DNA of 64,000 bases. Origin: an uncultured SAR116 cluster alpha proteobacterium (GTDB lineage Bacteria; Pseudomonadota; Alphaproteobacteria; Puniceispirillales; Marisalimonadaceae). This document shows positions 15,774 to 61,405 of the stretch, piece by piece. Under the pieces are notes generated by a model. That model saw nothing but the letters and a program-made list of their open reading frames with translations, was not told the origin of the DNA and did no database searches. The translations under genes were made by a program, and so were the position numbers. Positions within the stretch are counted from its first letter, which is position 1. Each line of letters opens with the position of its first letter. The stretch covers positions 86,191 to 150,190 of the forward strand of contig CACCZR010000001.1 of NCBI GenBank assembly GCA_902550555.1, in the 5' to 3' direction.

Positions 15774-15816
15774 TTTTCACCTATTCTAAATTATATTTAA
15801 TTTTTTAAACTATTTA

Positions 15817-16191: not shown

Positions 16192-16219
16192 AATAACACC
16201 TTTTAATATTATATTTTAC

Positions 16220-21846: not shown

Positions 21847-21862
21847 TCAAATAGGTATTTAT

Positions 21863-27643: not shown

Positions 27644-27654
27644 GATTGTAATTC

Positions 27655-27924: not shown

Positions 27925-27925
27925 C

Positions 27926-28717
27926 TCAACCTCCTGCTGAAAAAGTACTTACTAAGGAACCAACAGTCATTGCCCATCCATCAACTAAAACAAAAAGTAA
28001 TAATTTAAATGGTAGTGAAATAAGCATTGGTGAAAGCATCATCATACCTAATGACATCAATATGGAAGAGATAACCATATCAATAACTAAAAAAGGTAGA
28101 AATATTAAAAAACCTATTTGAAATGCAGTTTTCAATTCACTTGTCATAAAAGCTGGCAATACAACTCGAAAAGGTATTTCTTCATAATTTTCAAACTTTT
28201 TATCAATACCTGCTAAGTCAGAAAACATCAAAAGATCTGTTTTTCTTGTATTTTTGACCATGAAATTTTTTATACCTTTACTTGCTTTATCTACAGCTTC
28301 CTCTGCTGAAACTTCATTATTCATATACGGTATTGCTGCTTCATTGTAAATTTTTGTTAATGTTGGACTCATAATAAAAAAAGTTAAAAACAGAGAAATT
28401 GCAATAATTACTTGATTAGGAGGAGTTTGCTGTGTTCCTAGAGCTTGTCTTAAAATTGACATTACTATTATTATTCTAGTAAAACTTGTCATGCCTAAAA
28501 TTAATGAGGGTAAAATTGTTAATGCTCCCATTAGAATTAGAATTTGAAGTGGCAATGAATATTCTGTTTTACCTCCATTAGTATTTACATTTAAAGCAGG
28601 TAAACCATTTAAAAGTTCATTTGCAAGCGCAGGTTTACTAATGCATAAAATTGTAAACGCTAATATTATTAAAAATTTTAAAGGAGAATATATTAAATTT
28701 ATCATGTACTTTTTCAT
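27926..28717 (-). CDS. fliP: Flagellar export gate protein FliP
   Basis: 263 aa. Signal peptide, then LILMGALTILPSLILGMTSFTRIIIVMSILRQALGTQQTPPNQV, the FliP signature. Confidence 0.9.
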   Translation of the reverse strand: MKKYMINLIYSPLKFLIILAFTILCISKPALANELLNGLPALNVNTNGGKTEYSLPLQILILMGALTILPSLILGMTSFTRIIIVMSILRQALGTQQTPPNQVIIAISLFLTFFIMSPTLTKIYNEAAIPYMNNEVSAEEAVDKASKGIKNFMVKNTRKTDLLMFSDLAGIDKKFENYEEIPFRVVLPAFMTSELKTAFQIGFLIFLPFLVIDMVISSILMSLGMMMLSPMLISLPFKLLLFVLVDGWAMTVGSLVSTFSAGG

Positions 28718-28719
28718 AA

Positions 28720-29154
28720 TTAACTCTTTTTATGTAATGCAAGAAGATCAGAAATATTAACCTGCTCCAAAGGTTTTTTTGTTTCAACTTTTGGAGAAGC
28801 ATTTGTATTTTCCTTTGCAATTAAACTATTTGAAATATCTTTATTTTCGTTAAGGTTATTTTTATTATTTATAAATTTTTGATCTTTTTCTGCAGGTGAT
28901 TTTAAAATTTGCACTAGGTTTGAATGGCCTGATTTATGACCTACAAAAAAAAACTTTTCATTTTCTATTGAAAAAATCATAGCAGAATATCCACCTCTTA
29001 TTGGTGAATATTCAATTATATTAATTTTTTTATTGTTAATTATTTTTTTTAAAGAAACACTTTTTCTTCTTATAAAAAAAGCAACTAATACAAAAATACC
29101 CAAAAAACTTAAAACTGTTATTATTGTATATGGATTTAAAATACCTTCATTCAT
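28720..29154 (-). CDS. fliO: Flagellar protein FliO
   Basis: 144 aa with a single N-terminal TM. Assigned by position directly upstream of fliP and by size and topology. Confidence 0.6.
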   Translation of the reverse strand: MNEGILNPYTIITVLSFLGIFVLVAFFIRRKSVSLKKIINNKKINIIEYSPIRGGYSAMIFSIENEKFFFVGHKSGHSNLVQILKSPAEKDQKFINNKNNLNENKDISNSLIAKENTNASPKVETKKPLEQVNISDLLALHKKS

Positions 29155-29178
29155 AACTTACCTCTCATTTTAAGGTAA

Positions 29179-29193
29179 GCAAGAATAGTGCCA
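29179..29193 (-). promoter_or_regulatory. Sigma54 promoter upstream of fliO
   Basis: The minus strand reads TGGCAC-TATTC-TTGCT, a consensus -24/-12. The -12 GC lies 25 nt upstream of the fliO ATG, with GAGAGG between them. Confidence 0.85.
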
Positions 29194-29250
29194 ATGATGA
29201 AGTTATATAACGCTTTGAAAAAATTGAATAAAATTAGTCAAAAATTTGAC

Positions 29251-29568
29251 TTATAACTTTTTAACAGTATCTTCTGGATTAGAAACTTCTGTAAATCTTA
29301 CACCAAATCTTTCTCCAACCATTACTACTTCACCTCTTGCAATTTGAACACCATTAGCAAGGATATCAAGAGGATCTCCTGCAAGTCTTTCCAACTCAAC
29401 CACAGAACCTTCATTTAGTCTTAAAAGATCACGTATTTTTAATTGGGATGATCCAACTTCTACAGTAAGTTTAACTTCAATATTTTCTAAAACTTTTAAA
29501 TTATCAATACTAACTTCAGACTTATTATCTTCAGTCTCAACGTTATTCTCTTGATCTAATTCCGCCAT
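29251..29568 (-). CDS. fliN: Flagellar C-ring protein FliN
   Basis: 105 aa SpoA domain (LTVEVGSSQLKIRDLLRLNEGSVVELERLAGDPLDILANG...ARGEVVMVGERFGVRF). Confidence 0.9.
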   Translation of the reverse strand: MAELDQENNVETEDNKSEVSIDNLKVLENIEVKLTVEVGSSQLKIRDLLRLNEGSVVELERLAGDPLDILANGVQIARGEVVMVGERFGVRFTEVSNPEDTVKKL

Positions 29569-29578
29569 ATTAACTCCT

Positions 29579-30550
29579 TTAAGAAACTCTATTTTTAAGG
29601 CTTATTGCAGCCTGACCATTTGATTCACCAATTTCAGCTTTAAATAATATTTTTTTATCAACTAAAAAATCTACTCCATCAATAGGACCAATCTGCAGTA
29701 AATCACCTTTTTTAAAATTAACCATTTGTGACACTTTTACCTTGGGTTCACTTAAAATAGCAGATACAGGCAATGGTACATTTAGTACTGAATTTTGTAA
29801 CCTTTCTCTCCAAGTTGTGTCATCCTCAATCACATCTGACTGAACTCTAGATCTCAAAAGGGAAGCAATTGGTTTAAGTGTTTGCAGTGGATATATTATA
29901 TCAAATGAAGCTGAATCTACATTTGGTAATTGTATTACAAAAGAACATATTATCACTGAATCTGATGCCTCAACTAGAGTTGCAAATTGAGGATTTATTT
30001 CTCTACCAACATTTTTTATTGAAATTGGCATTAAATCTTTCCAAGCATTCTCTAATGATCTTCCAATACCGTCGCTGACTATCTCAATTATTCTTTCTTC
30101 AGTTGCAGTAAATTCAGCTTTTTTTGAGGGAAAGCTTGCTAATTTTCCACCATAATAACAATTGGTTAATATGCTAATAAATGATGGATCCATAACTAAC
30201 AACATCGAACCTTTTAATTCCTCTATACGAGAAGTAGACAAGCTCATAAAACTTTCTAAGCCAGCACTATATTCATCATAAGTTTTAACTTCTGGGGGAA
30301 AAGGATTAATTTTGGGTTGTAATCTCAACATTGGTAAAAATATCCCTCTTACCATCCTAGCAAATCTCTCGTTAATTAGTCTTAGGGCATAATAGTCTCC
30401 CATTAATTCAAGATTATCAGATCCAAAAGTAAAAGATGTTACCTCTAAGTCGTTATTAAAACCATCTCCAGAATTAATTTCACCAGATTTCAAGCCATCC
30501 ATTAAGGCTGATACTTCTTCTGACGATAATTTCCTTGACGTGTTTGACAT
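29579..30550 (-). CDS. fliM: Flagellar C-ring switch protein FliM
   Basis: 323 aa. N-terminal CheY-P-binding-type motif LSSEEVSALMDG and a C-terminal SpoA-like domain. Confidence 0.9.
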   Translation of the reverse strand: MSNTSRKLSSEEVSALMDGLKSGEINSGDGFNNDLEVTSFTFGSDNLELMGDYYALRLINERFARMVRGIFLPMLRLQPKINPFPPEVKTYDEYSAGLESFMSLSTSRIEELKGSMLLVMDPSFISILTNCYYGGKLASFPSKKAEFTATEERIIEIVSDGIGRSLENAWKDLMPISIKNVGREINPQFATLVEASDSVIICSFVIQLPNVDSASFDIIYPLQTLKPIASLLRSRVQSDVIEDDTTWRERLQNSVLNVPLPVSAILSEPKVKVSQMVNFKKGDLLQIGPIDGVDFLVDKKILFKAEIGESNGQAAISLKNRVS

Positions 30551-30560
30551 TTAAAAACCC

Positions 30561-31157
30561 TTATTGAACTACAAAACTTGTAAAATAAACACCCTCAATA
30601 CCAGGGAATTCTTTAAGAGATTCTAGTTTAGCATTCATTTCTTTAAGTAACTTTTCAGAAAGAGCATTTTTACCTTCACTTCCAGAAATACTTTCTTCAG
30701 AAAAATCACTAATAACTGATAAAATGACAGATCTTAAAGCTAATTGATGCTGATCAACCATTTCAATAACTTTTTCGTCATATTGAGTTGAAACACCAAC
30801 ACTAATTTGTAGAAACTTTTTACTATTTTTTAAATTTGTAGTGAAATCACCAGGAAATTCAAAATAAGTTGTTTCATAAGCGTCGACATCTGGAACTGAT
30901 TTAACATTTTTTGTTATTATTCCCTCTTCATTATTTTCTTCAGTGTTTTCATCTTTATTCTGTTTATTTTTTACCTTTGGTTCTCCTTCAATAATTTGAT
31001 TCACTTCTTGTGAAGGATCTTGTTCTGGTTCACCACCAAAAATGAAATATCCAATTCCAAGACCTAGAACAATTAAAAACATCCCACCAATCACAAAAAG
31101 AATAATTTTTAAAATCCCACCTTTTTTTTGTTGTTCTTCTTCTTTTACTTCAGCCAT
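30561..31157 (-). CDS. fliL: Flagellar basal-body-associated protein FliL
   Basis: 198 aa. A single TM, then YFEFPGDFTTNL...LQISVGV...LRSVILSVIS...GIEGVYFTSFVVQ, the FliL signature. Confidence 0.85.
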   Translation of the reverse strand: MAEVKEEEQQKKGGILKIILFVIGGMFLIVLGLGIGYFIFGGEPEQDPSQEVNQIIEGEPKVKNKQNKDENTEENNEEGIITKNVKSVPDVDAYETTYFEFPGDFTTNLKNSKKFLQISVGVSTQYDEKVIEMVDQHQLALRSVILSVISDFSEESISGSEGKNALSEKLLKEMNAKLESLKEFPGIEGVYFTSFVVQ

Positions 31158-31170
31158 TTTTGTCTCACTT

Positions 31171-32400
31171 CTAAGCGTTAATATTAATTAAGTAATTTGA
31201 ATTGTCATCTTTATTATTTTCTTCATTCTCTAGAATAGATATCTCATCTTTATTAAAATTATTATCTTTATTATTTTCTGAAGAATTTTTATTTTCTCTA
31301 TTTGAACTCATTAACGAATTTTCAAAATTAATTTTTTCTAATAGAAAACCGTGATCTGATAGTGTCTTTGCTAATAGTCCTTCGTTAGATTGTAATGCAA
31401 TCATACTAGCTGCATTTTCAACTTTCATTACGATATTTGCACTTTTATCTTTTATTTTTAAATTAATTTTTAAATTACCTAGTTCTTTTGGTTTTAAAGC
31501 TAATTCGATCTGCTTTTCATCTTCCTTTAATCCTTTTTCTATTCTTAAAATTAATTTTTCTGTCCAACCAAGTTTTGATATATCTAATTCTTCAATCATT
31601 TGATCTAAAACAAAATTAATATTTCTATCACTGTTAAATTGGTGTTGACTAAAATTGTTTCTTAAACTTAAGTTGTCTATTTTGTTTATTTGGTCACTAT
31701 GATGAGAAAAATTATTGCTCTCACTATTACCTTTAGTTTGTTTATACATAATTTCATTATCGTTAAAAATTATTTTATTTTCAAAATTCTTTGAATTTAT
31801 ATCTTCCTTTAAGCGATCAATTTTAGAAAAAATATCATTTAAAATACCTTTATTATACTCATTATTTTTAACATTATTTTTTTTAATTATATTATTATAA
31901 GAATTAGGTTTTAAATTTGATTTGTCTGACACATTTAAAAGGCTTTTCTCATTTTCACTAATTGAATTAATGTTTATGTTTATATCTTTGGTAATATCAC
32001 TATTTGATAACTTAGATACAATATTTTTTTTATTAAAATTTATTTTTAACAGCTTATCTGATTTTACATTAAGATTTAAAATATTTGGAATTTTTTTTGA
32101 ATTAAAATCAAAAACTTTATCATTTTTAAAAATTGGATGGTTCGTTTCATTTTCAGGAAATTTAGAAAAAAAATCCTTAAACATAATCTCTAATTTACCT
32201 ATATTTTTGGATGATTTTTTTGAACTTAATACTTTTTCAATTGAAGGATTCACAATAAATTCATTTATATTTTTTCCGTTAACTTTTTTTTCATCAACCA
32301 ATACAGGCAATGAAAACAAAGCACCTAAAACGTCATCAGTTTTACTTTTATCATTATTTTTAACGCTCAAATCAAATTTATGTGTATTAATTTTATCCAT
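31171..32400 (-). CDS. fliK: Flagellar hook-length control protein FliK
   Basis: 409 aa. Low-complexity N-terminal ruler region and a C-terminal Flg_hook-type domain (IELALKPKELGNLKINLKIKDKSANIVMKVENAASMIALQSN). Confidence 0.7.
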   Translation of the reverse strand: MDKINTHKFDLSVKNNDKSKTDDVLGALFSLPVLVDEKKVNGKNINEFIVNPSIEKVLSSKKSSKNIGKLEIMFKDFFSKFPENETNHPIFKNDKVFDFNSKKIPNILNLNVKSDKLLKINFNKKNIVSKLSNSDITKDINININSISENEKSLLNVSDKSNLKPNSYNNIIKKNNVKNNEYNKGILNDIFSKIDRLKEDINSKNFENKIIFNDNEIMYKQTKGNSESNNFSHHSDQINKIDNLSLRNNFSQHQFNSDRNINFVLDQMIEELDISKLGWTEKLILRIEKGLKEDEKQIELALKPKELGNLKINLKIKDKSANIVMKVENAASMIALQSNEGLLAKTLSDHGFLLEKINFENSLMSSNRENKNSSENNKDNNFNKDEISILENEENNKDDNSNYLININA

Positions 32401-32423
32401 AAAAGACCTTTAAGAGAATAAAT

Positions 32424-32438
32424 GCAATTTAAGTGCCA
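32424..32438 (-). promoter_or_regulatory. Sigma54 promoter upstream of fliK
   Basis: The minus strand reads TGGCAC-TTAAA-TTGCA, a perfect consensus, inside the 41-nt fliJ-fliK gap. The -12 GC lies 24 nt upstream of the ATG. Confidence 0.85.
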
Positions 32439-32441
32439 CAA

Positions 32442-32864
32442 TTAATTTTTTGTTAAATTTCTATTTGTAATTTCTAATTTTAAATCTTGAAACTCACTAA
32501 ATTCCATTTTCTTTTTATGGATTTTTTTTTCTACCTTATCTTTTTGAATAAATGTTTTTGCAATCGCTAAATCAGTTTTATTTTTTTGCTCTAATAAAAA
32601 TTCTTTTTTATTTTCTGCAATTTGTTTTTGCTTACTCATTATGTTTATGACTTTGCTCTTATTTTTATAAATTGCTCCTATCAAATTTTTATTAGTTTTT
32701 TTATTATTCTCTTGAATAATATTATTAATTTTAGACAATAAAATATCAGTTTTTTTTAATTCTTCATTTATTAAATTTACATTATTAATTTGATTATAAA
32801 GATCTCTTTTTTTTAATTTTTCAAGAAGTTTATATAACCTTATTTCTTTTTTAATCTTATTCAT
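32442..32864 (-). CDS. fliJ: Flagellar export chaperone/stalk protein FliJ
   Basis: 140 aa Lys-rich coiled coil. Assigned by the conserved position after fliI (8-nt overlap) and by size. Confidence 0.6.
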   Translation of the reverse strand: MNKIKKEIRLYKLLEKLKKRDLYNQINNVNLINEELKKTDILLSKINNIIQENNKKTNKNLIGAIYKNKSKVINIMSKQKQIAENKKEFLLEQKNKTDLAIAKTFIQKDKVEKKIHKKKMEFSEFQDLKLEITNRNLTKN

Positions 32865-34179
32865 TATATAACTTCAACAATTTTGATATGCATTCACTAT
32901 AATTAATTTTTTCATTTTCTTTTTGAGAGATGAAATCAATAATTTTAGGCCACATTGTGATTGCCTCATCAAGTAATATATCTTTACCTGGAACATATCC
33001 ACCCATCATAAGAAGATCTTTATTTTCAACATAAGAGGACACATGAGCTCTAAATTTTGTTGCTATATCTAAATGATCTTCTTTAATAATTTCATTCATG
33101 ACCCTACTAACTGAATTAGTTATATCAACTGCTGGATAAATTCCCATTTGTGCATTACTTCTACTTAACAGTATATGACCATCCAATATAGCCCTTGCAG
33201 TGTCAACAACAGGGTCATTGTTATCATCAGCATCTGCTAAAACAGTATAAAATGCAGTTATACTTCCATCAGAAACATCAGAGTTTCCAGTTCTTTCAAT
33301 TAAATTCGGTATCATTGAAATGACCGATGGAGGATAACCTTTTGAAGTAGGTTGTTCTCCCAGAGAAAGACCAATTTCCCTTTTTGAATGAGCTATTCTA
33401 GTCAAGCTATCCATAATTAATAAAACATTTTTGTTTTTACTTCTAAAATATTCAGCTATAGCAGTTGCTCTATTGGCTCCTCTTACCCTCAAAAGTGGTG
33501 ATTGATCTGCTGGAACAGCAACAACAGTAATTTTGTTTTTATTTTCATTACTAAACAGACTTTGTACCATTACTCCAACTTCCCTAGCTCTCTCTCCAAT
33601 CAAACCAAGAACAACTACATCTGCATTAGTAAATTGACTCATCATTTTTATTAAAATAGATTTACCTACTCCCGAACCTGCAACAATCCCTACTCTTTGA
33701 CCTTGTCCAATAGTTAAAAGTGAATTAATTATTTTTATTCCTACATCCAAGGGTTTTGTTACCGGCTTTCTTTTTAGAGGATTCATAGACTTTCCCATTA
33801 AAGGCCACTCCTCTTTCATTTTATCTATAGGTTTATCGTCTAATGGATTACCAAATGCATCTGTAATCCGTCCTAAAATCCTTTCATCAATATTAATATT
33901 TTTTCCATTATCTATTAACTGTACTTTACAACCTATAATTAAATTTGGATTTTGCCCTAATACAGCAAGCATATTGTATTTTTCATCAAAACTAATAACT
34001 TCGGACATGATTTTGTTTTTATTACAATCATATATTAAGCATAAACTCCCAATTGGAGCTGGAAAAGGATCTGTATAAACGATATTCCCATCAAATTTTT
34101 TCACCTCTCCAATATGAATGATATTCTTTTCAACAGATATGTTTTTAATTTTTTCTGAAATCTGGGAAGTAAAATTCAT
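32857..34179 (-). CDS. fliI: Flagellum-specific ATPase FliI
   Basis: 440 aa. Walker A AGSGVGKS, Walker B LLIMDSLTR, F1-beta-like. Confidence 0.92.
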   Translation of the reverse strand: MNFTSQISEKIKNISVEKNIIHIGEVKKFDGNIVYTDPFPAPIGSLCLIYDCNKNKIMSEVISFDEKYNMLAVLGQNPNLIIGCKVQLIDNGKNINIDERILGRITDAFGNPLDDKPIDKMKEEWPLMGKSMNPLKRKPVTKPLDVGIKIINSLLTIGQGQRVGIVAGSGVGKSILIKMMSQFTNADVVVLGLIGERAREVGVMVQSLFSNENKNKITVVAVPADQSPLLRVRGANRATAIAEYFRSKNKNVLLIMDSLTRIAHSKREIGLSLGEQPTSKGYPPSVISMIPNLIERTGNSDVSDGSITAFYTVLADADDNNDPVVDTARAILDGHILLSRSNAQMGIYPAVDITNSVSRVMNEIIKEDHLDIATKFRAHVSSYVENKDLLMMGGYVPGKDILLDEAITMWPKIIDFISQKENEKINYSECISKLLKLYNE

Positions 34180-34182
34180 AAT

Positions 34183-35226
34183 TTACTCTATTACTTTTTT
34201 ATACTTTATTGATTGAATCACTCCACCAATGTCAATTGTAAAATCACCTCTACCTAAAGAAGAATCTAAATCCAATTTAAAAGTAATTTCTGATTTATTA
34301 CTTTCTATAAATTTGTTTAATAAATCAAAATCCTCATTATTGAGATAAATTTTAATATCGTTATTAATACTTTTTATTTCATTAATACTATTTTTAATTT
34401 TTTTTAAAAACTTGTCAGGAAATTTTTCTATTTGGTAACCAATTACACTTTCGGCTAATTCAATTACTTTTGCCTTAACTACATTTTCAATTTCTTCATT
34501 ACTAATTTCTCTAATATTTTTAAATAGAGTATTAATTAAACTAATTTCAGAAATAACTTCATTAGCATAATCTTTTGAATCTTCTGTATTATTTTTAATT
34601 TCTTCACTTTGAGTTTCGATATTTTCTTCTAAAGATTTTGTTACAGCTTCACGAACTGAGTCTAATGCTTCAAGTGTTTTTTCTTCATATTCAATTTTAT
34701 TTGTTTCAGCAGAATTAGTATCAAGAATTTCTTCATCTAGTTTCTTTACATTTTTATTAATATCTTCCTCTAATACTCCCTCTGATTTTTCTTGTTTATC
34801 ATTAACATTTTCTTTTGAAACTTCATCTGATTTTATGGTTTCATCGATAGCTCCATCAACATGGTCTGCTTCTTTTTCATTATTATTATTTTTATCAATA
34901 TCGTTAAAAGAATGAATATTTTCAGGTCCATCATTTTGATTAATGTCTTTAACAGTTTCTTGACTTACACCTACATTTTCTTCACTGGAGTTATCAGTTT
35001 CATTTTGGTTTTCTTCTGATGAAATTCTTTCAGATTCTTTTGCTAGATCAAATAATGTTTTTTTTACAAAGTTTTTTTTATCTTTTTTATATAATTCTTC
35101 TTGATTAAATGTTGAATTTTTAAACGATTTAATAACAGAATTAATCTCATCAGTTCCTAAAGGAGAAAGTTTTAACTCCTCATTCTCATTTTCACTCTGG
35201 TTTATATTGACCATAACATTACTCAT
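34183..35226 (-). CDS. fliH: Flagellar assembly protein FliH with long acidic N-terminal extension
   Basis: 347 aa. The C-terminal ~110 aa are FliH-like (...AESVIGYQIE..., ...LGRGDFTIDIGGVIQS). Located between fliG and fliI. Confidence 0.7.
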   Translation of the reverse strand: MSNVMVNINQSENENEELKLSPLGTDEINSVIKSFKNSTFNQEELYKKDKKNFVKKTLFDLAKESERISSEENQNETDNSSEENVGVSQETVKDINQNDGPENIHSFNDIDKNNNNEKEADHVDGAIDETIKSDEVSKENVNDKQEKSEGVLEEDINKNVKKLDEEILDTNSAETNKIEYEEKTLEALDSVREAVTKSLEENIETQSEEIKNNTEDSKDYANEVISEISLINTLFKNIREISNEEIENVVKAKVIELAESVIGYQIEKFPDKFLKKIKNSINEIKSINNDIKIYLNNEDFDLLNKFIESNKSEITFKLDLDSSLGRGDFTIDIGGVIQSIKYKKVIE

Positions 35227-35232
35227 CTAAAT

Positions 35233-36273
35233 TTATACAAAATCATCACCACCACGACCAGCAAGCACAATTGATCCCTCATCGGACATTCTTCTTGCTA
35301 TAGCAATTATTTGTTTTTGAGCTTCTTGAACTTCTGTTAATCTTACAGGCCCCAACGCTTCCATTTCATCTTGTATATTCGCTGCAGCTCTTTGAGACAT
35401 ACAACCAAATAATTTTGTCCTTAGCTCATCATCTGCACCTTTAAGAGCTAAAATAATTAATTCATCATCAACTGCTCTTAAGAGAGTTTGAAGAGATTTA
35501 TCATCTGAAAGTAGTAATGTTTCAAAAACAAACATATTATCTTGAATACCCTGCATTAGTGATTTGTCAGCTTTTAAGATATCTTTCATTATTCTTCCTT
35601 CCATATCTTGTTTACAGAAGTTCATAATTCTAGCAGCAGCTTGCACTCCTCCAACTTTACTAGCTCTTAAACTTGCGTTTGAAGAAAAAACTTTTTGCAT
35701 AACTCTATTTAATTCTGACAACGCTTCGGGTTGAATGGTTTGAAGTGTAGCTATCCTTTTTACTATGTCTGACTGTATATTTTCCGGTAAAAGATTTAAC
35801 ACATCTGCTGCAATGCCAGGCTCTAAATATGAAATGATCAACGCTATAATTTGCGGATGCTCTTCTAAAATTAATTCCGCAATAGACCTTGCGTCTAACC
35901 ATTCTAATATTTCAATTGCTTTAACACTATCCTGAGGCGTAATTCTTCCTAAAACACTTTCAGCTTTATCTTCTCCAAGTGCTTTTGTTAAAACATTTTT
36001 AATATAACTTGTTCCTTCAATACCTAAACTTGTTTGCCCTTTTATAATTGCCAAAAACTCATCAAGTACTAAATTCACTGTTTCTTGCGGCAAACCTTGA
36101 ACTGAATACATAGCACTACCTAAAGTTTGAACTTCCTTTGGAGAGAGATTTTTCATAATCTCAGCGGCTTCATCCTCTCCAAGTAACATCATCAAAATTG
36201 CACATTTTTGAGTTCCAGTTAAATTGTCATATAAATCATTTATATCTTCAGTTGTAGATACTTGTTCAGCCAT
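35233..36273 (-). CDS. fliG: Flagellar rotor/switch protein FliG
   Basis: 346 aa. LTGTQKCAILMMLLGEDEAAEIMKNL, EEHPQIIALI and the MFVFE motif. Confidence 0.92.
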   Translation of the reverse strand: MAEQVSTTEDINDLYDNLTGTQKCAILMMLLGEDEAAEIMKNLSPKEVQTLGSAMYSVQGLPQETVNLVLDEFLAIIKGQTSLGIEGTSYIKNVLTKALGEDKAESVLGRITPQDSVKAIEILEWLDARSIAELILEEHPQIIALIISYLEPGIAADVLNLLPENIQSDIVKRIATLQTIQPEALSELNRVMQKVFSSNASLRASKVGGVQAAARIMNFCKQDMEGRIMKDILKADKSLMQGIQDNMFVFETLLLSDDKSLQTLLRAVDDELIILALKGADDELRTKLFGCMSQRAAANIQDEMEALGPVRLTEVQEAQKQIIAIARRMSDEGSIVLAGRGGDDFV

Positions 36274-36297
36274 TTTATATCCTATCTGTATTATGTT

Positions 36298-38013
36298 TTA
36301 ATTATCTGTTGGTTGATCTCTCATCATATTTTTAAAGACATTTGATACTCTACCAGCTTGATCTCCTACAATCATTCTAATTACAGCTACTTTATCATCA
36401 TAAGTGTTTGCAGTATCAAGCATCTCCGCTGATATCGCTTGTTTTTTTGGTTTTAACTTTGCTTTTATATCCTCCAAAGTATCACCCTCTTGAACTTCAA
36501 CTTTATCTAAATCTTCTTCAAAATCACTATCACTCATAACAGGAGTTCCTGAAGAAAATGACGCAGGAACTATTACTCTTCTTAATAATGGTAACAAAGC
36601 ACCGAATGTAATTATAGCAAATATTAATATCATACCAAGTTGTTTAGATAGTTCTTTAAATGTTCCACTTTCATACCATGGGATAGAAACAGGTTCTAAT
36701 GTATCTATAAATGGACTACTTTGAACAGTTATACTATCTCCTCTATTTTCATCAAAGCCGAGTGTCTCCATTACTAGTAATTTTATCTCATCTAGTTTTT
36801 TTTGATCAACCTTTTCAAAAGAAACAGTACCATCATCTGAAATTATTTTCTTTTCTCTTAAAATTACGGCAGCTTTAATTTTTGTTACTTTCCCCACTTG
36901 TGGCAATGTTGTTTCAATTTTTTTACTTATTTCATAATTTTTTACTGATGACTGACTTCTTGACTTTATATTACCTATTCCGCCTTTAGCATTTGGAGCA
37001 TCCTGCTTCAAATCTGGTTTAAGTGGTGGTTGGTTTGCTAATGCACCTGGTATTCCTTGAGCTTCAGCATCTCCTGATTCATCTAACGTATTTTGTTCAC
37101 TTCTTATTGCGTTCCCTTCTGGATCTACTAATTCTTCAGTGATCTCTTTTTTTGTGAAATTCATATCTACATTTACTTCTGCTTTTACGTTTCCAGCACC
37201 TATCATTGGTGTCAAAAGAGAAATAACTTTTGATCTATAAATTTCACCTAGCTTCATTTGTTGAATAATTTGTTCTTCTGATGCGGAAATATTGTCGTCT
37301 GTTTTTGGTTTTGATAATAACTCACCAAATTGATCAATTACAGTAACATTTTCAGATGGTAAATTTGGTACAGATGAGGATACCAAATGAACAATAGATT
37401 GAACTTGTTGCCTTCCTAAAGAACGTCCTGCCGCTAGCCTCACAAATACTGAGGCAGAAGGCAAAGCTGTTTCACGAGCAAAAACAGTTTTTTCTGGAAT
37501 GGCAAGATGCACTCTTGCTGATGAAATGCCTGAAATAAAGTTTAACGACTTGGACAATTCAGCTTCAAGAGTTTGTTTAATCTTAACTGCTTCTACAGAT
37601 CTACTAGTTCCCATAGGCATGTCATTTAAAGAAGAATAACCATCTGGTACAGAAGAAGGTAAACCTTGCGAAGCTAGTAACATTTTTGCATTATGATAAT
37701 CTTCAACAGGTACTATAACCTCTCCAGTTGCTGAATTTAATGAAACATCAACACCATTTTGTTTGAGTGCATCAAAAACTGCAGATTTTTCATTTTCTGG
37801 TAAAGAAGAAAATAAAGTTGTCATTTCTGGTTTCTGCATTAAATAAAAAGAAACAATTCCAATGAATGTAACAATTATTCCAAAAGCAAGAGGAACTGAC
37901 TTTTGAACCGCAGGGTCTGACCTCAGTTTTTTAACATTAGAAAATACTCCAGAAATTTTTGATAAAATTCCTGAATTTGTATTTGTTAACTCATTTCCTG
38001 TTGCTTCAGCCAT
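36298..38013 (-). CDS. fliF: Flagellar MS-ring protein FliF
   Basis: 571 aa. N-terminal TM, YscJ/FliF ring-building motifs (LFSSL...DVSLN..TGEVIVPVEDYHNAKMLLASQGLP) and a C-terminal TM. Confidence 0.9.
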   Translation of the reverse strand: MAEATGNELTNTNSGILSKISGVFSNVKKLRSDPAVQKSVPLAFGIIVTFIGIVSFYLMQKPEMTTLFSSLPENEKSAVFDALKQNGVDVSLNSATGEVIVPVEDYHNAKMLLASQGLPSSVPDGYSSLNDMPMGTSRSVEAVKIKQTLEAELSKSLNFISGISSARVHLAIPEKTVFARETALPSASVFVRLAAGRSLGRQQVQSIVHLVSSSVPNLPSENVTVIDQFGELLSKPKTDDNISASEEQIIQQMKLGEIYRSKVISLLTPMIGAGNVKAEVNVDMNFTKKEITEELVDPEGNAIRSEQNTLDESGDAEAQGIPGALANQPPLKPDLKQDAPNAKGGIGNIKSRSQSSVKNYEISKKIETTLPQVGKVTKIKAAVILREKKIISDDGTVSFEKVDQKKLDEIKLLVMETLGFDENRGDSITVQSSPFIDTLEPVSIPWYESGTFKELSKQLGMILIFAIITFGALLPLLRRVIVPASFSSGTPVMSDSDFEEDLDKVEVQEGDTLEDIKAKLKPKKQAISAEMLDTANTYDDKVAVIRMIVGDQAGRVSNVFKNMMRDQPTDN

Positions 38014-38033
38014 AACTTAATCCTTTATCTATA

Positions 38034-38342
38034 TTACACTGGCATGTTCATAATATCTTTATATGAACTTAAAACTTTATTTCTTACATTTAATGTTAAT
38101 TGAAAAGCGATATTTGCTACTTGTTGTTGCATGACAACTTTCGTAAGATCAGTTTCTTTTCCTAATTCATAATCTTTAGTAATTTGATTAGCCTTAGTTT
38201 GTGAATCTGCAACTTCTTTTATTGCATCATTAATTTTAGAACCGAAGTCTACAGAACTTTTATTATCCAAAATTTTTGATGCCTTATCCAAAACATCTGC
38301 TCTAAGATTGTTTTGAATTATATTTCCATTTATTTTAGACAT
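38034..38342 (-). CDS. fliE: Flagellar hook-basal body protein FliE
   Basis: 102 aa. C-terminus VMQQQVANIAFQLTLNVRNKVLSSYKDIMNMPV is FliE-typical. Confidence 0.85.
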   Translation of the reverse strand: MSKINGNIIQNNLRADVLDKASKILDNKSSVDFGSKINDAIKEVADSQTKANQITKDYELGKETDLTKVVMQQQVANIAFQLTLNVRNKVLSSYKDIMNMPV

Positions 38343-59385: not shown

Positions 59386-59865
59386 TTATTTTGGCATAAT
59401 TTCTTGAAATGGAAATTTGTAGGTTTTTAAGGTAAACTCATTATTTCTAGAACGCTTATCTCTATCACCTTCTTTTTTTGGAATTACCTCACCCATTTGA
59501 GGAATACCAAATTGTTCTTGATTTCTTCTAGCCTGATCTAAACTATCCTCGTTTTCTTCAGTCCATAGAAATTTGTATAATCTATTTTCTTTATTTTGAA
59601 GTGCCCATAATATGATCCATCTTTCACCTTTTTCGTAAATTACACTATGATACTGGTAAACAAATTTTGAAGGAGGTCTCTCATAAAGTGGTTTTCCAAT
59701 AAATTCATAGTTTGTTATGAAACTTATGTATATTGATAAAAATATAATTGGAACAGTTACAAAATACTGCCATCTTTTTTTAATGAAAAAAGGTAAACAA
59801 CAAATAGCTCCAGCAAAAGCCCATATTAACATTAGCTGACCGCCACTAATTGAAAAATTTAACAA
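59386..59865 (-). CDS. Hypothetical membrane protein (two TM helices plus charged soluble C-domain); third gene of the ExbB/ExbD-like module
   Basis: 159 aa (TTG start abuts the upstream stop; alternative ATG at 59832). No family recognised. Confidence 0.5.
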   Translation of the reverse strand: MLNFSISGGQLMLIWAFAGAICCLPFFIKKRWQYFVTVPIIFLSIYISFITNYEFIGKPLYERPPSKFVYQYHSVIYEKGERWIILWALQNKENRLYKFLWTEENEDSLDQARRNQEQFGIPQMGEVIPKKEGDRDKRSRNNEFTLKTYKFPFQEIMPK

Positions 59866-60483
59866 TTAAGCACCCTCTTTCCTAATAATTTCATCTTTGA
59901 TTATCAATTCTTCAGTTGGTTTAACGTGAACACTTTGGTTATAATCTATTCTAAATGTCATTGCAGGCAGTTCTTGTCCCTCTTGACTGAAAAAAAGTTT
60001 TTTGTGGAACTCTTCTCTATAAGGGTTAATCTTTATAAGCTTTACAGATGCATGAATTAATGGTGCAGGATTTTTTCTAGCATTATAAAAGTGAACTGTA
60101 ACAAGGTAGGATCTAGGATCATTAGTCCTAATAGCAACAGTTTCTCTATTTTCTTTTAAATAAACTAATTTACCATCAGCATCATAATAAGTGTCATTAA
60201 TCGTACCCAAATCATCTCTCTCTAGATGAATTAAAGCATCATCTGGTCGTCTAAAACTAACAACATGTCCTAAATTGTCTTTTACCCACAAATCTAAATC
60301 ATAAGGTTTCTCACCATCCCATTCTAATATTATAAAGTATTCTGCTTTAGGTTTAATTGTTTCTTTTTTTGCTACTGGATTTATTAACATGAAAGCCAAC
60401 ATGAACAAAAAAACAAATCCTATAAGAAGATTAAATAATAAATCTATAAATCCAAAAGATGATCTGTATCTTGGGTCATTCAT
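59866..60483 (-). CDS. ExbD/TolR-like TM anchor fused to an unrelated ~160-aa periplasmic domain
   Basis: 205 aa. N-terminus SSFGFIDLLFNLLIGFVFLFMLAFML parallels the ExbD/TolR TM with its essential Asp. The remainder (EWDGEKPYDLDLWVKD...VTVHFYNARKN) looks like a beta-sandwich, not an ExbD periplasmic domain. Confidence 0.6.
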   Translation of the reverse strand: MNDPRYRSSFGFIDLLFNLLIGFVFLFMLAFMLINPVAKKETIKPKAEYFIILEWDGEKPYDLDLWVKDNLGHVVSFRRPDDALIHLERDDLGTINDTYYDADGKLVYLKENRETVAIRTNDPRSYLVTVHFYNARKNPAPLIHASVKLIKINPYREEFHKKLFFSQEGQELPAMTFRIDYNQSVHVKPTEELIIKDEIIRKEGA

Positions 60484-60937
60484 GGTTATTATTCTCTAAT
60501 ATGACCATTTGAATTTTTGTTAATACACTTGATACAAGACCAACAAGAGTAGTACACAAAGCGGTACTCATTCCTAAAGACATATCTGTAATAACTTCTT
60601 GAACATTCTCAACATTTTTAACATCAAGATTATCAAAAGCTGAACTTAACATTAAAAGAAAACCAGCAACGGTTCCAATTAAACCCAAAGTAACCATGGT
60701 TTCAGAAGAAAACCAAATATAATTAGATAAAACATTTCTATTAGATAGGTTTTTGTAGCTTAAAACACCTACAGTTAAAGTAGCTCCGATAAATACAACT
60801 ATTATTAAAAAACTTATTTTTGTTTGATCTGCATCATAAAGTGCTTCAAACCAGTTAAAAGAATATATAAAAAAGGATGCAAAACAAATAGTAATAACTT
60901 GTATCCACCATAATAAAAATGGTTTTGTTATTTTCAT
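60476..60937 (-). CDS. Small MotA/TolQ/ExbB-family ion-channel protein
   Basis: 153 aa from the Met at 60937 (the track ORF starts at TTG 60985). Four TM helices. The last two carry the MotA_ExbB signature TLGLIGTVAGFLLML...(~20 aa)...LGMSTALCTTLVGLVSSVL. 8-nt overlap with the next gene. Confidence 0.65.
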   Translation of the reverse strand: MKITKPFLLWWIQVITICFASFFIYSFNWFEALYDADQTKISFLIIVVFIGATLTVGVLSYKNLSNRNVLSNYIWFSSETMVTLGLIGTVAGFLLMLSSAFDNLDVKNVENVQEVITDMSLGMSTALCTTLVGLVSSVLTKIQMVILENNNHE

Positions 60938-61180
60938 TAATTTCTCCCTATTATCATAACAACATTTAATATTCAGAATAAACAAGCGTTAATTAATTTC
61001 AAAATGAATATTTTAAATTTTGATTAATATTTAACCAAATACTATTATTTCTAAATTATTAATAATATATTTAATATTTATCAATAGTTTCCAAAATAGA
61101 AATAATCATTTTCTACTATTGTGTATTCTCTTTTACATAAGAAACAATTATATTTTGTTTATATTCAAAAGGAACAGACA

Positions 61181-61405
61181 ATGACTAAAAATAAATTTAT
61201 AAATACTATAACTTCTATTTTCGAAAAAATTGCGATCAATAGAACAAGGCAAGCTTTAGCATTCTTATCAGACAACGAGCTTGAAGCAATGGGTATAACT
61301 AGAACTTCTTTAGATACAGGTGATTTCTACAATTACAAAGAAGTTGCAAATTTTCCAACCAAGAAGATAAGAAATATTAAATCTACAAAAGCTAAAGCTG
61401 CTTAG
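61181..61405 (+). CDS. DUF1127-domain small protein
   Basis: 74 aa from the ATG at 61181 (AAGGA upstream). RTRQALAFLSDNELEAMGITRTSL matches the DUF1127 pattern (L..LsD.eL.D.Gi.R). Confidence 0.6.
   Translation: MTKNKFINTITSIFEKIAINRTRQALAFLSDNELEAMGITRTSLDTGDFYNYKEVANFPTKKIRNIKSTKAKAA

What the first reader, a model, noticed from the sequence alone, without database searches (positions are those of the whole stretch)
59386..60937. Orphan ExbB/ExbD-like ion-motor module with non-canonical periplasmic domain and a third membrane partner
Three tightly coupled minus-strand genes (8-nt overlap, then a 0-nt gap) form a self-contained operon between unrelated metabolic genes. Gene 1 is a miniature 153-aa, 4-TM MotA/TolQ/ExbB-type channel subunit with the signature TLGLIGTVAGFLLML...LGMSTALCTTLVGLVSSVL. 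Gene 2 opens with FGFIDLLFNLLIGFVFLFML. This parallels the ExbD/TolR/MotB-type TM helix carrying the essential ion-binding Asp (E. coli ExbD ...FIDVMLVLLIIFMV..., from memory). Its ~160-aa periplasmic part does not look like the ExbD/TolR fold or an OmpA-like peptidoglycan binder. By eye it resembles the W...D.DL.V.D..G beta-sandwich pattern of YfaP/DUF2135-type domains (EWDGEKPYDLDLWVKDNLGHVV...YLVTVHFYN). Gene 3 is a 2-TM protein with a highly charged soluble domain and no recognisable family. No TonB, TolA/Pal, TonB-dependent receptor, gliding (GldLM), Agl or Zorya partners are adjacent. The flagellar stator is encoded elsewhere in the window. This fits a stator-like 5:2 rotary or ion-driven unit coupled to an unknown envelope output.
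Basis: partly seen in the sequence, partly recalled or inferred. Interest (0 to 1): 0.75.

Follow-up and report, generated by a model that had tools for sequence, protein, structure and literature searches.

The report
Phage-type miniature ion-motor gene trio
Three overlapping membrane-protein genes in this marine SAR116 bacterium look like a stripped-down relative of the proton-driven Tol/Ton/flagellar-stator motors, and the same undescribed trio is common in phages, so it may be the first such motor family carried by viruses.

Summary
Three minus-strand genes sit at 59386-60937 with an 8-nt overlap and then a 0-nt gap.

- **g1 (153 aa, 4 TM)** passes Pfam MotA_ExbB. It keeps the two pore threonines of TolQ but has no cytoplasmic domain.
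- **g2 (205 aa)** has an N-terminal helix with an invariant Asp in the TolR/ExbD register. Its periplasmic part is an all-beta sandwich, not an ExbD, TolR or OmpA fold.
- **g3 (159 aa)** is a TM hairpin plus a small domain, a basic tail and a conserved C-terminal FPxQExMPK motif. It matches no known family.

The new result is the distribution. The trio is a rigid module in SAR116 chromosomes, where it is syntenic with dN/dS 0.02-0.17. It also occurs in Azospirillum, Desulfobacterales and soil Alphaproteobacteria. It is found in Rhizobium and Sinorhizobium phages, including temperate phage 16-3, and in at least 321 IMG/VR viral contigs. No tonB, tolA or receptor gene accompanies it anywhere.

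The SAR116 copies are closest to marine viral copies. My best reading is a self-contained ion-driven A5B2-type motor plus a membrane adaptor that acts on the envelope. The stoichiometry and the biological role were not tested. I found no published description.

The parts
60476..60937 (-). g1: 153-aa, 4-TM MotA/TolQ/ExbB-family subunit (A subunit) with no cytoplasmic domain. The TM2-TM3 loop is about 18 aa, and only 10 aa follow TM4.
   Evidence: Pfam PF01618 scores 30.6 bits against a cut-off of 22.9, covering profile positions 57-116 only. PADLOC ZorA models match the TM region only, E 4e-7. hhalign against E. coli TolQ aligns TM3-TM4 with TolQ TM2-TM3, E 1e-4. Hydropathy is and family invariants.
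60671..60673 (-). g1 Thr89 codon (GLIGTVAG motif). It is the equivalent of E. coli TolQ Thr145, a pore-lining threonine.
   Evidence: Invariant in 17 diverse g1 sequences. Aligned to TolQ GLFGTVWG. TolQ numbering checked.
60548..60550 (-). g1 Thr130 codon (STALCTTLVGL). It is the equivalent of E. coli TolQ Thr178.
   Evidence: Invariant, aligned, numbering checked.
59866..60483 (-). g2: 205-aa B-type subunit. It has a short basic cytoplasmic N-terminus, one long TM helix with an invariant Asp, a conserved juxtamembrane linker (LINPxAKK) and a periplasmic beta-sandwich.
   Evidence: The AF2 model has pLDDT 85.4: helix 4-42, then 11 strands over 49-188. Invariants are D14, W55, D62, D64, D90, G93 and E114 in 107 sequences. 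There are no Pfam, NCBIfam, PADLOC or PHROG hits.
60442..60444 (-). g2 Asp14 codon (FGFIDLLFNLL). This is the candidate ion-binding Asp, in the same register as TolR D23 (PLLDVLLVLL) and ExbD D25 (PFIDVMLVLL).
   Evidence: Invariant in 61 and in 107 family members. It is also present in the Rhizobium phage, 16-3 and Azospirillum versions.
59914..60345 (-). g2 periplasmic beta-sandwich (about residues 47-190). It is DUF2135/YfaP-like, with an acidic conserved cluster (DxDLW, RDDLG, ND, NxE) that suggests a metal or Ca2+ site.
   Evidence: hhalign of A3 against E. coli YfaP gives 91.6% probability, E 8e-7. Sub-threshold Pfam hits to DUF2135 occur in 9/107 and to PPC in 14/107. The Foldseek PDB top hits are the TerD-like entries 2qz7 and 2qng, E about 1e-4, TM 0.44-0.52. 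There is no sequence-level TerD signal. The metal site is inferred from the conservation pattern only.
59386..59865 (-). g3: 159-aa third subunit. It has a TM hairpin (residues about 8-56) with a positively charged connecting loop (KKRW). After that come a conserved GxP motif, a three-stranded sheet plus helix, a basic disordered tail, and a C-terminal Y-K-F-P-F-Q-E-I-M-P-K motif.
   Evidence: The family alignment spans SAR116, marine viruses, Rhizobium phages, Desulfobacterales and soil Alphaproteobacteria. The AF2 model is of low confidence, pLDDT 59.6. Foldseek finds no match. The C-terminal motif is conserved in the marine viral and SAR116 clade. The N-out/C-out topology is inferred from the positive-inside rule.
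60938..61180 (-). AT-rich intergenic region upstream of g1, shared with a divergent small ORF. It is the presumed promoter region of the operon.
   Evidence: GC is about 0.21-0.24. The best sigma-70-like site is 61084-61055 (10/12), but the number of sites is no higher than in shuffled sequence. Rfam gives no match. In relatives L001 and L029 a MarR-like gene fills this space.

Best explanation
The trio encodes a self-contained, ion-driven (most likely proton-driven) membrane motor of the MotA/ExbB/TolQ class in a minimal form.

**Proposed assembly.**
- g1 forms the ring. By analogy this is a pentamer.
- The N-terminal helices of g2 (by analogy two copies) sit inside the ring. Each presents Asp14 to the ring of g1 Thr89/Thr130, and together these form the ion path.
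- The g2 periplasmic DUF2135-like beta-sandwich replaces the ExbD, TolR or OmpA-type domain. It sits just above the membrane on a strongly conserved linker. It would act as the fixed or regulated periplasmic element, either an anchor or a plug, and may depend on Ca2+.
- g3 is the TolA/TonB-position partner. Its TM hairpin docks on the outside of the ring. Its periplasmic domain, basic tail and C-terminal FPxQExMPK peptide would carry the work to a ubiquitous envelope component.

**Why the output must be outside the cytoplasm.** g1 has no cytoplasmic domain, so any output has to be periplasmic or within the membrane.

**Origin and role.** The module is primarily a phage module used during infection. 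The SAR116 chromosomal copy is a long-fixed, functional copy of the marine-phage type. The most likely roles are control of the infected cell's envelope, that is exclusion of further phage entry or stabilisation of the envelope. Which of these applies is not resolved.

**Shown:** family membership of g1, conserved Thr/Thr/Asp, the fold class of g2, rigid three-gene linkage, the phage and host distribution, and purifying selection.

**Inferred:** 5:2 stoichiometry, rotation, g3 topology and docking, metal binding, and the biological role.
For: **g1.**
- It scores above the Pfam MotA_ExbB cut-off.
- T89 and T130 are invariant and align with TolQ T145 and T178.

**g2.**
- Asp14 is invariant in 107 sequences and lies in the TolR D23 / ExbD D25 register.
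- The confident AF2 model shows one long helix followed by a beta-sandwich.
- The sandwich is homologous to DUF2135/YfaP.

**Gene arrangement.**
- The gene order A-B-C with translational coupling matches tolQ-tolR-tolA.
- g1-g2 are adjacent in 95/95 loci. The trio is present in 77/80 viral loci, and two of the three exceptions are cut by a contig end.
- The g3 family is conserved from SAR116 to Desulfobacterales and Rhizobium phages.
- No other conserved neighbour exists across clades.

**Selection and distribution.**
- dN/dS is 0.02-0.17 for all three genes.
- Phage carriage is shown.
- The SAR116 proteins are closest to viral ones (61/53/43% identity) rather than to other cellular ones (42/41%, and none for g3). 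They nest among viral sequences in an NJ tree.

**Published precedent.** A non-ExbD protein with a trans-pore Asp helix has been proposed to replace the B subunit of a TolQ-like ring: TPH-vWA, Mol Biol Evol 2025, PMC12204202 section 8.
Against:
- The g2 helix has no statistically detectable similarity to TolR or ExbD. The B-subunit assignment therefore rests on position, topology and the Asp.
- hhalign of g1 against TolQ gives only 56% probability, against a single sequence.
- The g3 model is of low confidence. g3 lacks the SHLS/His motif by which TolA and TonB dock on their motors.
- No target of the output is identified.
- The direction of transfer between phage and SAR116 rests on a midpoint-rooted NJ tree and on identity ranks.
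- Fixed synteny across SAR116 species would also fit an ancestral housekeeping function later captured by phages.
Confidence: 0.55

Rival explanations
1. The trio is an anti-phage or superinfection-exclusion device of the Zorya kind. The motor senses disturbance of the envelope by an incoming phage and blocks entry or triggers a response. Lytic and temperate phages carry it to exclude competitors, and SAR116 keeps a domesticated copy as immunity.
For: - g1's best named hits outside Pfam are the TM cores of ZorA models (PADLOC E 4e-7; NCBIfam ZorA2 E 2.6e-4).
- The module is carried by many unrelated phage types, including temperate 16-3, where it lies a few kb from the immX immunity region.
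- It is self-contained, as defence modules are.
- The SAR116 copy is of viral type.
Against: - There is no ZorA-like long cytoplasmic tail, no ZorB peptidoglycan-binding domain, and no ZorC/D/E or any nuclease or effector gene.
- In SAR116 it sits at one fixed, syntenic, non-island locus across species about 80% identical, under strong purifying selection. That is unlike the patchy, fast-turnover pattern usual for defence systems.
- The ZorA hits reflect shared MotA/ExbB homology only.
Confidence: 0.25
2. The trio is a minimal Tol-like housekeeping system of cellular origin. It uses proton-motive force to keep the outer membrane attached to the wall, for example at division. Phages captured it as an auxiliary gene set to keep the infected envelope intact until lysis.
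For: - The gene order is the same as tolQ-tolR-tolA.
- Chromosomal copies are stable and syntenic in SAR116. Copies are also present in Azospirillum chromids, Desulfobacterales and soil Alphaproteobacteria with cellular neighbours.
- dN/dS is low.
- The output is periplasmic or within the membrane only, because g1 has no cytoplasmic domain.
Against: - SAR116 sequences nest inside viral diversity for all three genes.
- There is no Pal, TolB or CpoB-like partner.
- g3 has no TolA domain III or SHLS motif.
- Whether SAR116 also has a canonical tolQRA could not be checked.
Confidence: 0.2
3. The trio is a gated ion leak rather than a force-generating motor. A g1-g2 channel dissipates membrane potential on a periplasmic cue sensed by the g2 sandwich. 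g3 acts as a holin- or antiholin-like regulator. Phages use the channel to time lysis or shut down host energy metabolism.
For: - g3 has the outline of a class II holin-type protein, a TM hairpin with a charged C-terminal region.
- The g2 linker after the helix is the most conserved stretch (I34, N35, P36, K39), as expected of a plug.
- The module is phage-borne.
Against: - The trio lies among early or middle DNA-metabolism genes, not next to endolysin or spanin genes, in the phage loci read.
- Stable chromosomal copies without lysis genes, under purifying selection, are hard to reconcile with a lethal leak.
- At 145-190 aa with a folded domain, g3 is longer than typical class II holins.
Confidence: 0.1
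4. The trio is an ordinary Ton or Tol system whose partners (TonB or TolA, receptors) are simply encoded elsewhere in the genome.
For: g1 belongs to the MotA/TolQ/ExbB family. The rest of the genome was not available for inspection.
Against: - g2 is not ExbD or TolR by Pfam, by profile comparison or by fold.
- g1 lacks the ExbB/TolQ cytoplasmic domain.
- The trio travels as a unit in phages that have no Ton or Tol genes nearby.
- There is no co-occurring tonB, tolA or TBDT gene in any of the 178 related loci compared.
Confidence: 0.03

Closest known systems
TolQ-TolR-TolA (Tol-Pal motor) of Gram-negative bacteria
   Same: - The gene order is the same: ring subunit, Asp-helix subunit, third membrane-anchored periplasmic protein.
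- g1 TM3-TM4 aligns with TolQ TM2-TM3, and both pore threonines are conserved (T145/T178 = T89/T130).
- g2 Asp14 lies in the register of TolR D23.
- The output is directed to the periplasm.
   Different: - g1 has 4 TM helices and no cytoplasmic domain (153 aa against 230 aa).
- The g2 periplasmic domain is a DUF2135-like beta-sandwich, not the TolR fold.
- g3 has a TM hairpin and no SHLS motif, no long helical domain II and no TolA domain III.
- There are no pal, tolB or cpoB genes.
- The module is carried by phages.
ExbB-ExbD-TonB
   Same: The logic of ring plus Asp-helix plus a peripheral force transducer is the same. The g2 helix start (FIDLLFNLL) resembles ExbD (FIDVMLVLL).
   Different: No PF02472 match and no profile similarity. 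There is no TonB C-terminal domain or Pro-rich spacer, and no TonB-dependent receptor nearby.
TolQ-like rings paired with TPH-vWA proteins (Mol Biol Evol 2025, msaf138; PMC12204202)
   Same: The principle is the same. The canonical ExbD/TolR gene is absent and is replaced by a protein that has a trans-pore helix with the conserved Asp and an unrelated periplasmic domain. Both are self-contained and of unknown function.
   Different: Here the periplasmic domain is a DUF2135-like sandwich, not vWA. The ring subunit is miniature. There is a conserved third 2-TM partner. The distribution is largely viral.
ZorA-ZorB of the Zorya anti-phage system
   Same: Both are non-flagellar MotAB-type complexes linked to phage-host conflict. 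g1's TM core gives weak hits to ZorA models.
   Different: There is no ZorA tail, no ZorB peptidoglycan-binding domain and no ZorC/D/E effectors. In most cases the module is found in the phages themselves.
YfaP / DUF2135 (PF09906), E. coli yfaQ-yfaP-yfaS alpha-2-macroglobulin cluster
   Same: The g2 sandwich shares the W..D.DLxV ... G.Y.V.V.Y core with YfaP (hhalign 91.6%, E 8e-7).
   Different: - It is below Pfam thresholds for the window protein.
- YfaP is annotated only as a DUF2135 domain protein, and its function is unknown.
- g2 is anchored by an Asp-bearing helix.
- g2 has RDDLG...ND...NxE in place of YfaP's D.T.GYGPE segment.

Membership tests
MotA/TolQ/ExbB (PF01618), for g1 | Score at or above the Pfam gathering cut-off | tested here: met
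   30.6 bits against 22.9, E 3.1e-7, covering profile positions 57-116 of 127.
MotA/TolQ/ExbB (PF01618), for g1 | Two C-terminal TM helices carrying the conserved pore threonines (TolQ T145/T178) | tested here: met
   T89 and T130 are invariant in 17 diverse sequences and align to TolQ T145 and T178.
MotA/TolQ/ExbB (PF01618), for g1 | Cytoplasmic helical domain between TM helices and/or at the C-terminus, as in ExbB, TolQ and MotA | tested here: not met
   The TM2-TM3 loop is about 18 aa and the C-terminal tail 10 aa. The N-terminal half of the Pfam profile is unmatched.
MotA/TolQ/ExbB (PF01618), for g1 | Assembly as a pentamer around a dimer of the partner (5:2) | not testable with these tools
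   No multimer prediction was available.
ExbD/TolR (PF02472), for g2 | Sequence membership (Pfam or profile) | tested here: not met
   No hit at E <= 1. Two of 107 relatives reach E 0.065. hhalign against E. coli TolR and ExbD gives probability of 1.5% or less.
ExbD/TolR (PF02472), for g2 | N-in single TM helix with an essential Asp near its cytoplasmic end, encoded directly after the ring gene | tested here: met
   D14 is invariant in 107 sequences. The register matches TolR D23 and ExbD D25. g2 overlaps g1 by 8 nt.
ExbD/TolR (PF02472), for g2 | Periplasmic alpha/beta ExbD/TolR fold | tested here: not met
   The AF2 model (pLDDT 85) is all-beta from residue 49 to 188. No ExbD or TolR structure appears among the Foldseek hits.
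MotB/ZorB-type B subunits, for g2 | MotB plug plus OmpA-like peptidoglycan-binding domain | tested here: not met
   No PF13677 or PF00691 hit for g2. The window's true MotB at 21863-23041 has both.
DUF2135 / YfaP (PF09906), for the g2 sandwich | Pfam gathering score | tested here: not met
   The window protein has no hit at E <= 1. Nine of 107 relatives give sub-threshold hits, best E 0.0021.
DUF2135 / YfaP (PF09906), for the g2 sandwich | Profile-level homology to a bona fide member (E. coli YfaP) | tested here: met
   hhalign gives 91.6% probability, E 8e-7, over 75 columns covering W55-Y134.
TerD (PF02342), for the g2 sandwich | Sequence or fold similarity to TerD | tested here: inconclusive
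   At fold level, the Foldseek top hits are 2qz7 and 2qng, E 8e-5 to 2e-4, TM 0.41-0.52. At sequence level, hhalign against Klebsiella TerD gives 0.2% probability, and a profile search against PDB sequences finds nothing.
TonB/TolA force transducers, for g3 | Single N-terminal TM helix with the SHLS/His motor-binding motif | tested here: not met
   g3 has two TM helices. No conserved His or Ser is present. The conserved positions are G9, L24, F26, P39, G57 and P59.
TonB/TolA force transducers, for g3 | C-terminal TonB_C or TolA domain III | tested here: not met
   No Pfam hit. The low-confidence model gives no Foldseek match.
TonB/TolA force transducers, for g3 | Encoded directly after the A and B genes and anchored in the inner membrane with a periplasmic extension | tested here: inconclusive
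   Position and membrane anchoring are met. The periplasmic orientation is inferred only from the positive charge of the inter-helix loop.
Zorya | ZorA with a long C-terminal tail, plus ZorB and ZorC/D or ZorE | tested here: not met
   PADLOC and NCBIfam ZorA hits cover only the first roughly 110-190 positions of 400-700-position models, far below cut-offs (19.7 bits against 700). No further PADLOC hits were found.

The most novel reading that the evidence does not exclude
This is the first family of ion-driven MotA/ExbB-type rotary motors that is primarily encoded by viruses. Phages of Alphaproteobacteria and many marine viruses would bring their own miniature proton-powered machine, with a new DUF2135-type stator subunit and a new adaptor, to do mechanical work on the host envelope during infection. 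SAR116 and a few other bacterial lineages would then have domesticated it.
Probability: 0.4. Interest if true: 0.85.

Novelty: new variant of a known kind. Interest (0 to 1): 0.7.

Why it matters
[quoted passage not shown] Each new partner set has revealed a new function. This trio is a minimal version, with a 153-aa ring subunit and no cytoplasmic domain, so the output has to be periplasmic or within the membrane. That would make it a useful limiting case for how these motors work.

**A large unannotated family, mostly seen in viruses.** The family has about 2000 clusters at 50% identity and no annotation. It is found in phages of several unrelated types. This suggests phages use membrane energy to manipulate the host envelope, something not previously documented as far as I could find.

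**It is testable in culture.** Relatives exist in tractable systems: Sinorhizobium phage 16-3, Rhizobium leguminosarum T4-like phages, and Azospirillum brasilense Sp7.

**Relevance to the marine host.** For SAR116, an abundant marine clade, it marks a stably inherited gene set of the type carried by marine viruses.

Tried and rejected
- **Ordinary ExbD/TolR for g2.** Rejected by Pfam, by hhalign against E. coli TolR and ExbD, and by fold.
- **TerD homology for the g2 sandwich.** The Foldseek top hits are TerD-like. However, hhalign against Klebsiella TerD gives 0.2% and a profile search against PDB sequences gives nothing. I keep this as a fold resemblance only.
- **BFVD fold search for g2.** It returned only generic sandwich modules inside large uncharacterised viral proteins, which was uninformative.
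- **g3 structure.** The AF2 model reached only pLDDT 59.6, and Foldseek gave no hit with E < 0.3.
- **PHROGs.** None of the three proteins matched.
- **PADLOC and NCBIfam.** The only hits were to the ZorA TM core. I do not take these as evidence for Zorya.
- **Extra domains in longer g2 homologues (242-327 aa).** No Pfam hits.
- **Conserved neighbours across clades.** There are none beyond within-clade synteny.
- **Gene directly upstream of g1.** It is a weak MarR-like gene in L001 and L029, a small secreted protein in some phages, and an endonuclease in others. It is not homologous across loci and is absent from the window.
- **SAG contig ends about 50-150 nt upstream of g1.** I suspected a repeat. 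The ends are scattered within a very AT-rich spacer, so this is most likely an assembly effect.
- **Promoter, terminator and Rfam scans of the locus.** Nothing above chance.
- **Literature searches.** Searches for DUF2135, TerD+ExbB, phage-encoded MotA/ExbB and ExbB proton channel in viral contigs found no description of this module.
- **IMG/VR scan with the broad alignment A3.** It failed because no stretch was conserved enough. I repeated it with A1.


Full report
**What is in the sequence.**
On the minus strand at 59386-60937 there are three tightly coupled ORFs.
- g1 is 60476-60937, 153 aa, starting at an ATG preceded by GGGAGA.
- g2 is 59866-60483, 205 aa. Its ATG lies inside the last codons of g1, giving an 8-nt overlap (ATGAATGA).
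- g3 is 59386-59865, 159 aa. It starts at a TTG immediately after the g2 stop and is preceded by GAGGGTG. The 92%-identical relative L001 has an ATG at the same codon, and the N-terminal residues are conserved, so the TTG start is credible.

The operon converges on a luciferase-like monooxygenase gene that ends at 59383. It diverges from a small conserved ORF across a 243-bp spacer of about 21-24% GC. No Rfam family and no terminator-like site is present, and promoter-like sites are no more frequent than in shuffled sequence. The base composition of the trio is the same as that of its flanks.

**Host.**
Identical or near-identical copies of g2 lie in many single-cell and metagenome-assembled genomes labelled SAR116 cluster. 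The complete chromosome of Candidatus Levibacter sp. carries an 80%-identical copy in the same synteny, with luciferase-like, ADH and PabA/PabB-like genes on one side and the small ORF on the other. The window is therefore from a low-GC SAR116 alphaproteobacterium. It also contains a flagellar gene cluster with a canonical MotA (PF01618, 98 bits) and MotB (MotB_plug + OmpA) at 21082-23041. The trio is therefore not the flagellar stator.

**g1.**
- g1 passes the Pfam gathering score for MotA_ExbB (30.6 against 22.9 bits), but only over profile positions 57-116, which correspond to the last two TM helices.
- Hydropathy shows four TM segments. The TM2-TM3 loop is about 18 residues, and only 10 residues follow TM4. 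The cytoplasmic domain that ExbB, TolQ and MotA all possess is missing.
- In an alignment of 17 diverse family members the invariant residues include G85, G88, T89, A126, T130 and G133 in TM3/TM4, and D37 and T39 in the TM1-TM2 loop.
- hhalign against E. coli TolQ aligns GLIGTVAG with GLFGTVWG and STALCTTLVGL with AEALIATAIGL. This puts T89 on TolQ T145 and T130 on TolQ T178. From established knowledge of TolQ, ExbB and MotA, these are the pore-lining threonines that face the Asp of the partner.
- PADLOC and NCBIfam give weak hits to the TM core of ZorA models, far below cut-offs. I read these as general family resemblance.

**g2.**
- g2 has no hit in Pfam, NCBIfam, PADLOC or PHROGs.
- The AF2 model, built on a 61-sequence alignment, is confident (mean pLDDT 85.4). 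It shows one long helix (residues 4-42), then an all-beta domain of eleven strands (49-188), then a short C-terminal helix.
- The helix begins RYRSSFGFIDLLFNLLIGF. Asp14 is invariant in 61 and in 107 family members. It occupies the same register as TolR D23 (IVPLLDVLLVLL) and ExbD D25 (VTPFIDVMLVLL).
- Statistically, the helix is not recognisable as ExbD or TolR. hhalign against either gives at most 1.5% probability, and 2 of 107 relatives give an ExbD Pfam hit at E 0.065.
- The segment just after the membrane (I34, N35, P36, K39, A47, E48) is invariant in the 61 closer family members.
- The beta domain is not an ExbD, TolR or OmpA fold. Its best PDB matches are the TerD-like structures 2qz7 and 2qng (E about 1e-4, TM 0.44-0.52), but there is no sequence-level link to TerD.
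- The family profile does align to E. coli YfaP, the type DUF2135 protein, with 91.6% probability (E 8e-7). The alignment spans W55-D62-D64 (WD...DLDLWV) through G.Y.V.V.Y. Nine of 107 relatives give sub-threshold PF09906 hits, and 14 give PPC hits.
- The invariant and near-invariant acidic and polar residues (D62, D64, D90, D91, D97, N112, E114) suggest a metal site. That is an inference from the conservation pattern, not a result.

**g3.**
- g3 has no family hit.
- Homologues can be aligned from SAR116, marine viral contigs, Rhizobium phages, a Pelagibacteraceae-labelled MAG, soil Alphaproteobacteria and Desulfobacterales.
- The common plan is two TM helices joined by a short, positively charged loop (KKRW here). 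These are followed by a nearly invariant G-x-P at the membrane surface, a small beta-meander and a helix. A basic low-complexity tail and a conserved end complete the protein.
- In the SAR116 and marine-virus clade the end is Y-(D/K)-F-P-(F/Y)-Q-E-x-(M/F)-P-K.
- The AF2 model is poor (pLDDT 59.6) and has no structural match.
- By the positive-inside rule the hairpin loop is cytoplasmic, so both termini, including the C-terminal domain, would be periplasmic. This is inference.

**Linkage and distribution.**
- In 95 related loci from metagenomes, cultured phages and species-representative genomes, g1 always immediately precedes g2. g3 follows wherever the profile can detect it or an equivalent 2-TM ORF exists.
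- In 80 IMG/VR loci, 77 have all three genes. Two of the three exceptions are cut by a contig end.
- No other gene family is shared by the neighbourhoods of different clades. In particular there is no tonB, tolA, pal or receptor gene.
- The g2 family comprises 1965 clusters at 50% identity with E <= 1e-3, and 476 with E <= 1e-30.

Carriers found were:
- T4-like marine phage contigs with RNaseH, PhoH, PD-(D/E)XK and SegE genes.
- Viral contigs with a family-B DNA polymerase.
- At least 321 IMG/VR contigs of up to 117 kb.
- Cultured Rhizobium T4-like phages such as P10VF, RL38J1 and RHph_N34, where the trio lies between the gyrase genes and the late sigma factor.
- 59-68-kb Rhizobium phages, and Sinorhizobium phages including temperate 16-3. 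In 16-3, p038 matches g1 (E 2.5e-6) and p040 matches g2 (E 2.5e-18). p042 resembles g3 by position and by eye only.
- Azospirillum chromids, Desulfobacterales and soil alphaproteobacterial chromosomes.

Every annotated copy is called "hypothetical protein".

**Origin of the SAR116 copy.**
- All three proteins are most similar to environmental viral versions (61, 53 and 43% identity). Other cellular versions are more distant (42%, 41%, and none detectable for g3).
- In a midpoint-rooted NJ tree of g2, the 26 distinct SAR116 sequences are monophyletic. Their successive outgroups are all viral, until the other cellular sequences join.
- Within SAR116 the locus is syntenic, and dN/dS is 0.02-0.17 for each gene with saturated dS.
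- The simplest reading is an old transfer between a marine phage lineage and the SAR116 ancestor, followed by vertical inheritance of a functional operon. The nesting favours phage-to-host transfer, but the method is too weak to be sure.

**How it most likely works.**
g1 would form a TolQ-like ring and the g2 helices the central axle. Asp14 would be protonated and deprotonated against the Thr89/Thr130 rings, as in TolQR, ExbBD and MotAB (established mechanism for those families; inferred here). Because g1 has no cytoplasmic domain, the work must be delivered in the membrane or the periplasm. The g2 sandwich, held close to the membrane by an invariant linker, is the candidate fixed or regulatory element. 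g3, in the gene position of tolA, is the candidate peripheral adaptor that carries movement to an envelope target through its basic tail and C-terminal peptide.

There is a published precedent for replacing the ExbD/TolR subunit. TolQ-like genes paired with TPH-vWA proteins have been described, where the partner has an unrelated periplasmic domain on an Asp-bearing trans-pore helix (Mol Biol Evol 2025, PMC12204202, section 8). A survey of MotAB relatives notes that non-flagellar members carry assorted DUF appendages of unknown role (mBio 2025, PMC12505986). Neither describes this trio, and my other literature searches found nothing on it.

**Biological role.**
This is open. The module lies in early or middle regions of lytic phages and near the immunity region of a temperate phage. 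It is also stably fixed in some bacterial chromosomes. I rank the roles as follows:
- control of the envelope during infection by exclusion of other phages, about 0.25-0.3;
- Tol-like stabilisation of the envelope, about 0.2-0.3;
- a gated leak used for lysis timing, about 0.1.

A split ordinary Ton or Tol system is essentially excluded.

**Verdict.**
The module is a new variant of a known kind of machine. What makes it interesting is its minimal ring, its DUF2135-type partner, its new third subunit and, above all, its largely viral distribution. Stoichiometry, rotation, topology of g3, metal binding and function remain to be shown.

Noticed in passing
window 21082-23041 and about 25686-38342: A flagellar gene cluster lies here. 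MotA (PF01618, 98 bits) and MotB (MotB_plug + OmpA) are confirmed by Pfam. Export-apparatus and switch/ring genes are recognisable by eye (FlhB-, FliR-, FliQ-, FliP-, FliN-, FliM-, FliI-, FliG- and FliF-like ORFs).
   Followed up: partly
L001 8802-9230 and L029 upstream of g1; window 60938-61180: In two SAR116-type relatives a 142-aa weak MarR-like gene (Pfam MarR E 0.0012, below cut-off) overlaps the start of g1 by 4 nt. In the window and most other SAR116 genomes this gene is absent, replaced by an AT-rich spacer. This hints that the operon is regulated in some lineages.
   Followed up: partly
L033-L066 (SAR116 single-cell assemblies), first 50-150 nt: About twenty independent SAG contigs end inside the AT-rich spacer just upstream of g1. 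The ends are scattered rather than at one point, so this is probably an amplification or assembly effect of extreme AT content rather than a repeat.
   Followed up: yes
L179 (phage 16-3) 3238-4137; L013 (RHph_N3_13) 7567-8259: A trypsin-like serine protease lies within 1-2 kb of the trio in two unrelated rhizobial phages. The 16-3 record notes its protease as typically periplasmic. DUF2135's namesake YfaP sits in an alpha-2-macroglobulin (protease-inhibitor) cluster. The co-location may be coincidence.
   Followed up: no
L010 9230-9553, L012 5295-5648, L014 4014-4544: In marine T4-like phage contigs and in Rhizobium phage RHph_I1_18, the gene directly upstream of g1 encodes a small protein whose N-terminus looks like a signal peptide by eye. 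It has no Pfam hit. It could be an optional periplasmic partner.
   Followed up: partly
L179 (phage 16-3) 4699-4989 and 5519-5704: In temperate phage 16-3 two extra small ORFs (p039, 96 aa; p041, 61 aa with two hydrophobic stretches) are inserted between the g1-, g2- and g3-like genes. The strict overlap seen elsewhere is therefore not universal.
   Followed up: no
window 15459-16555: Three tandem small paralogous ORFs (104, 124 and 111 aa) on the minus strand have repetitive G-x-[IV] beta-strand-like sequence. By eye they resemble bactofilin-type proteins. This was not tested.
   Followed up: no
window 61181-61405 (+): A small conserved ORF lies divergent from the operon (MTKNKF...RTRQAL...). 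It is syntenic in L001 and Ca. Levibacter. By eye it resembles DUF1127-type small proteins, but it has no Pfam hit at E <= 0.01.
   Followed up: partly
L071, L072 (genome contigs): Two contigs binned into Chloroflexota and Legionellales MAGs carry the trio next to a family-B DNA polymerase and genes shared with the viral contigs L005 and L008. They are most likely viral contigs mis-binned into MAGs.
   Followed up: partly
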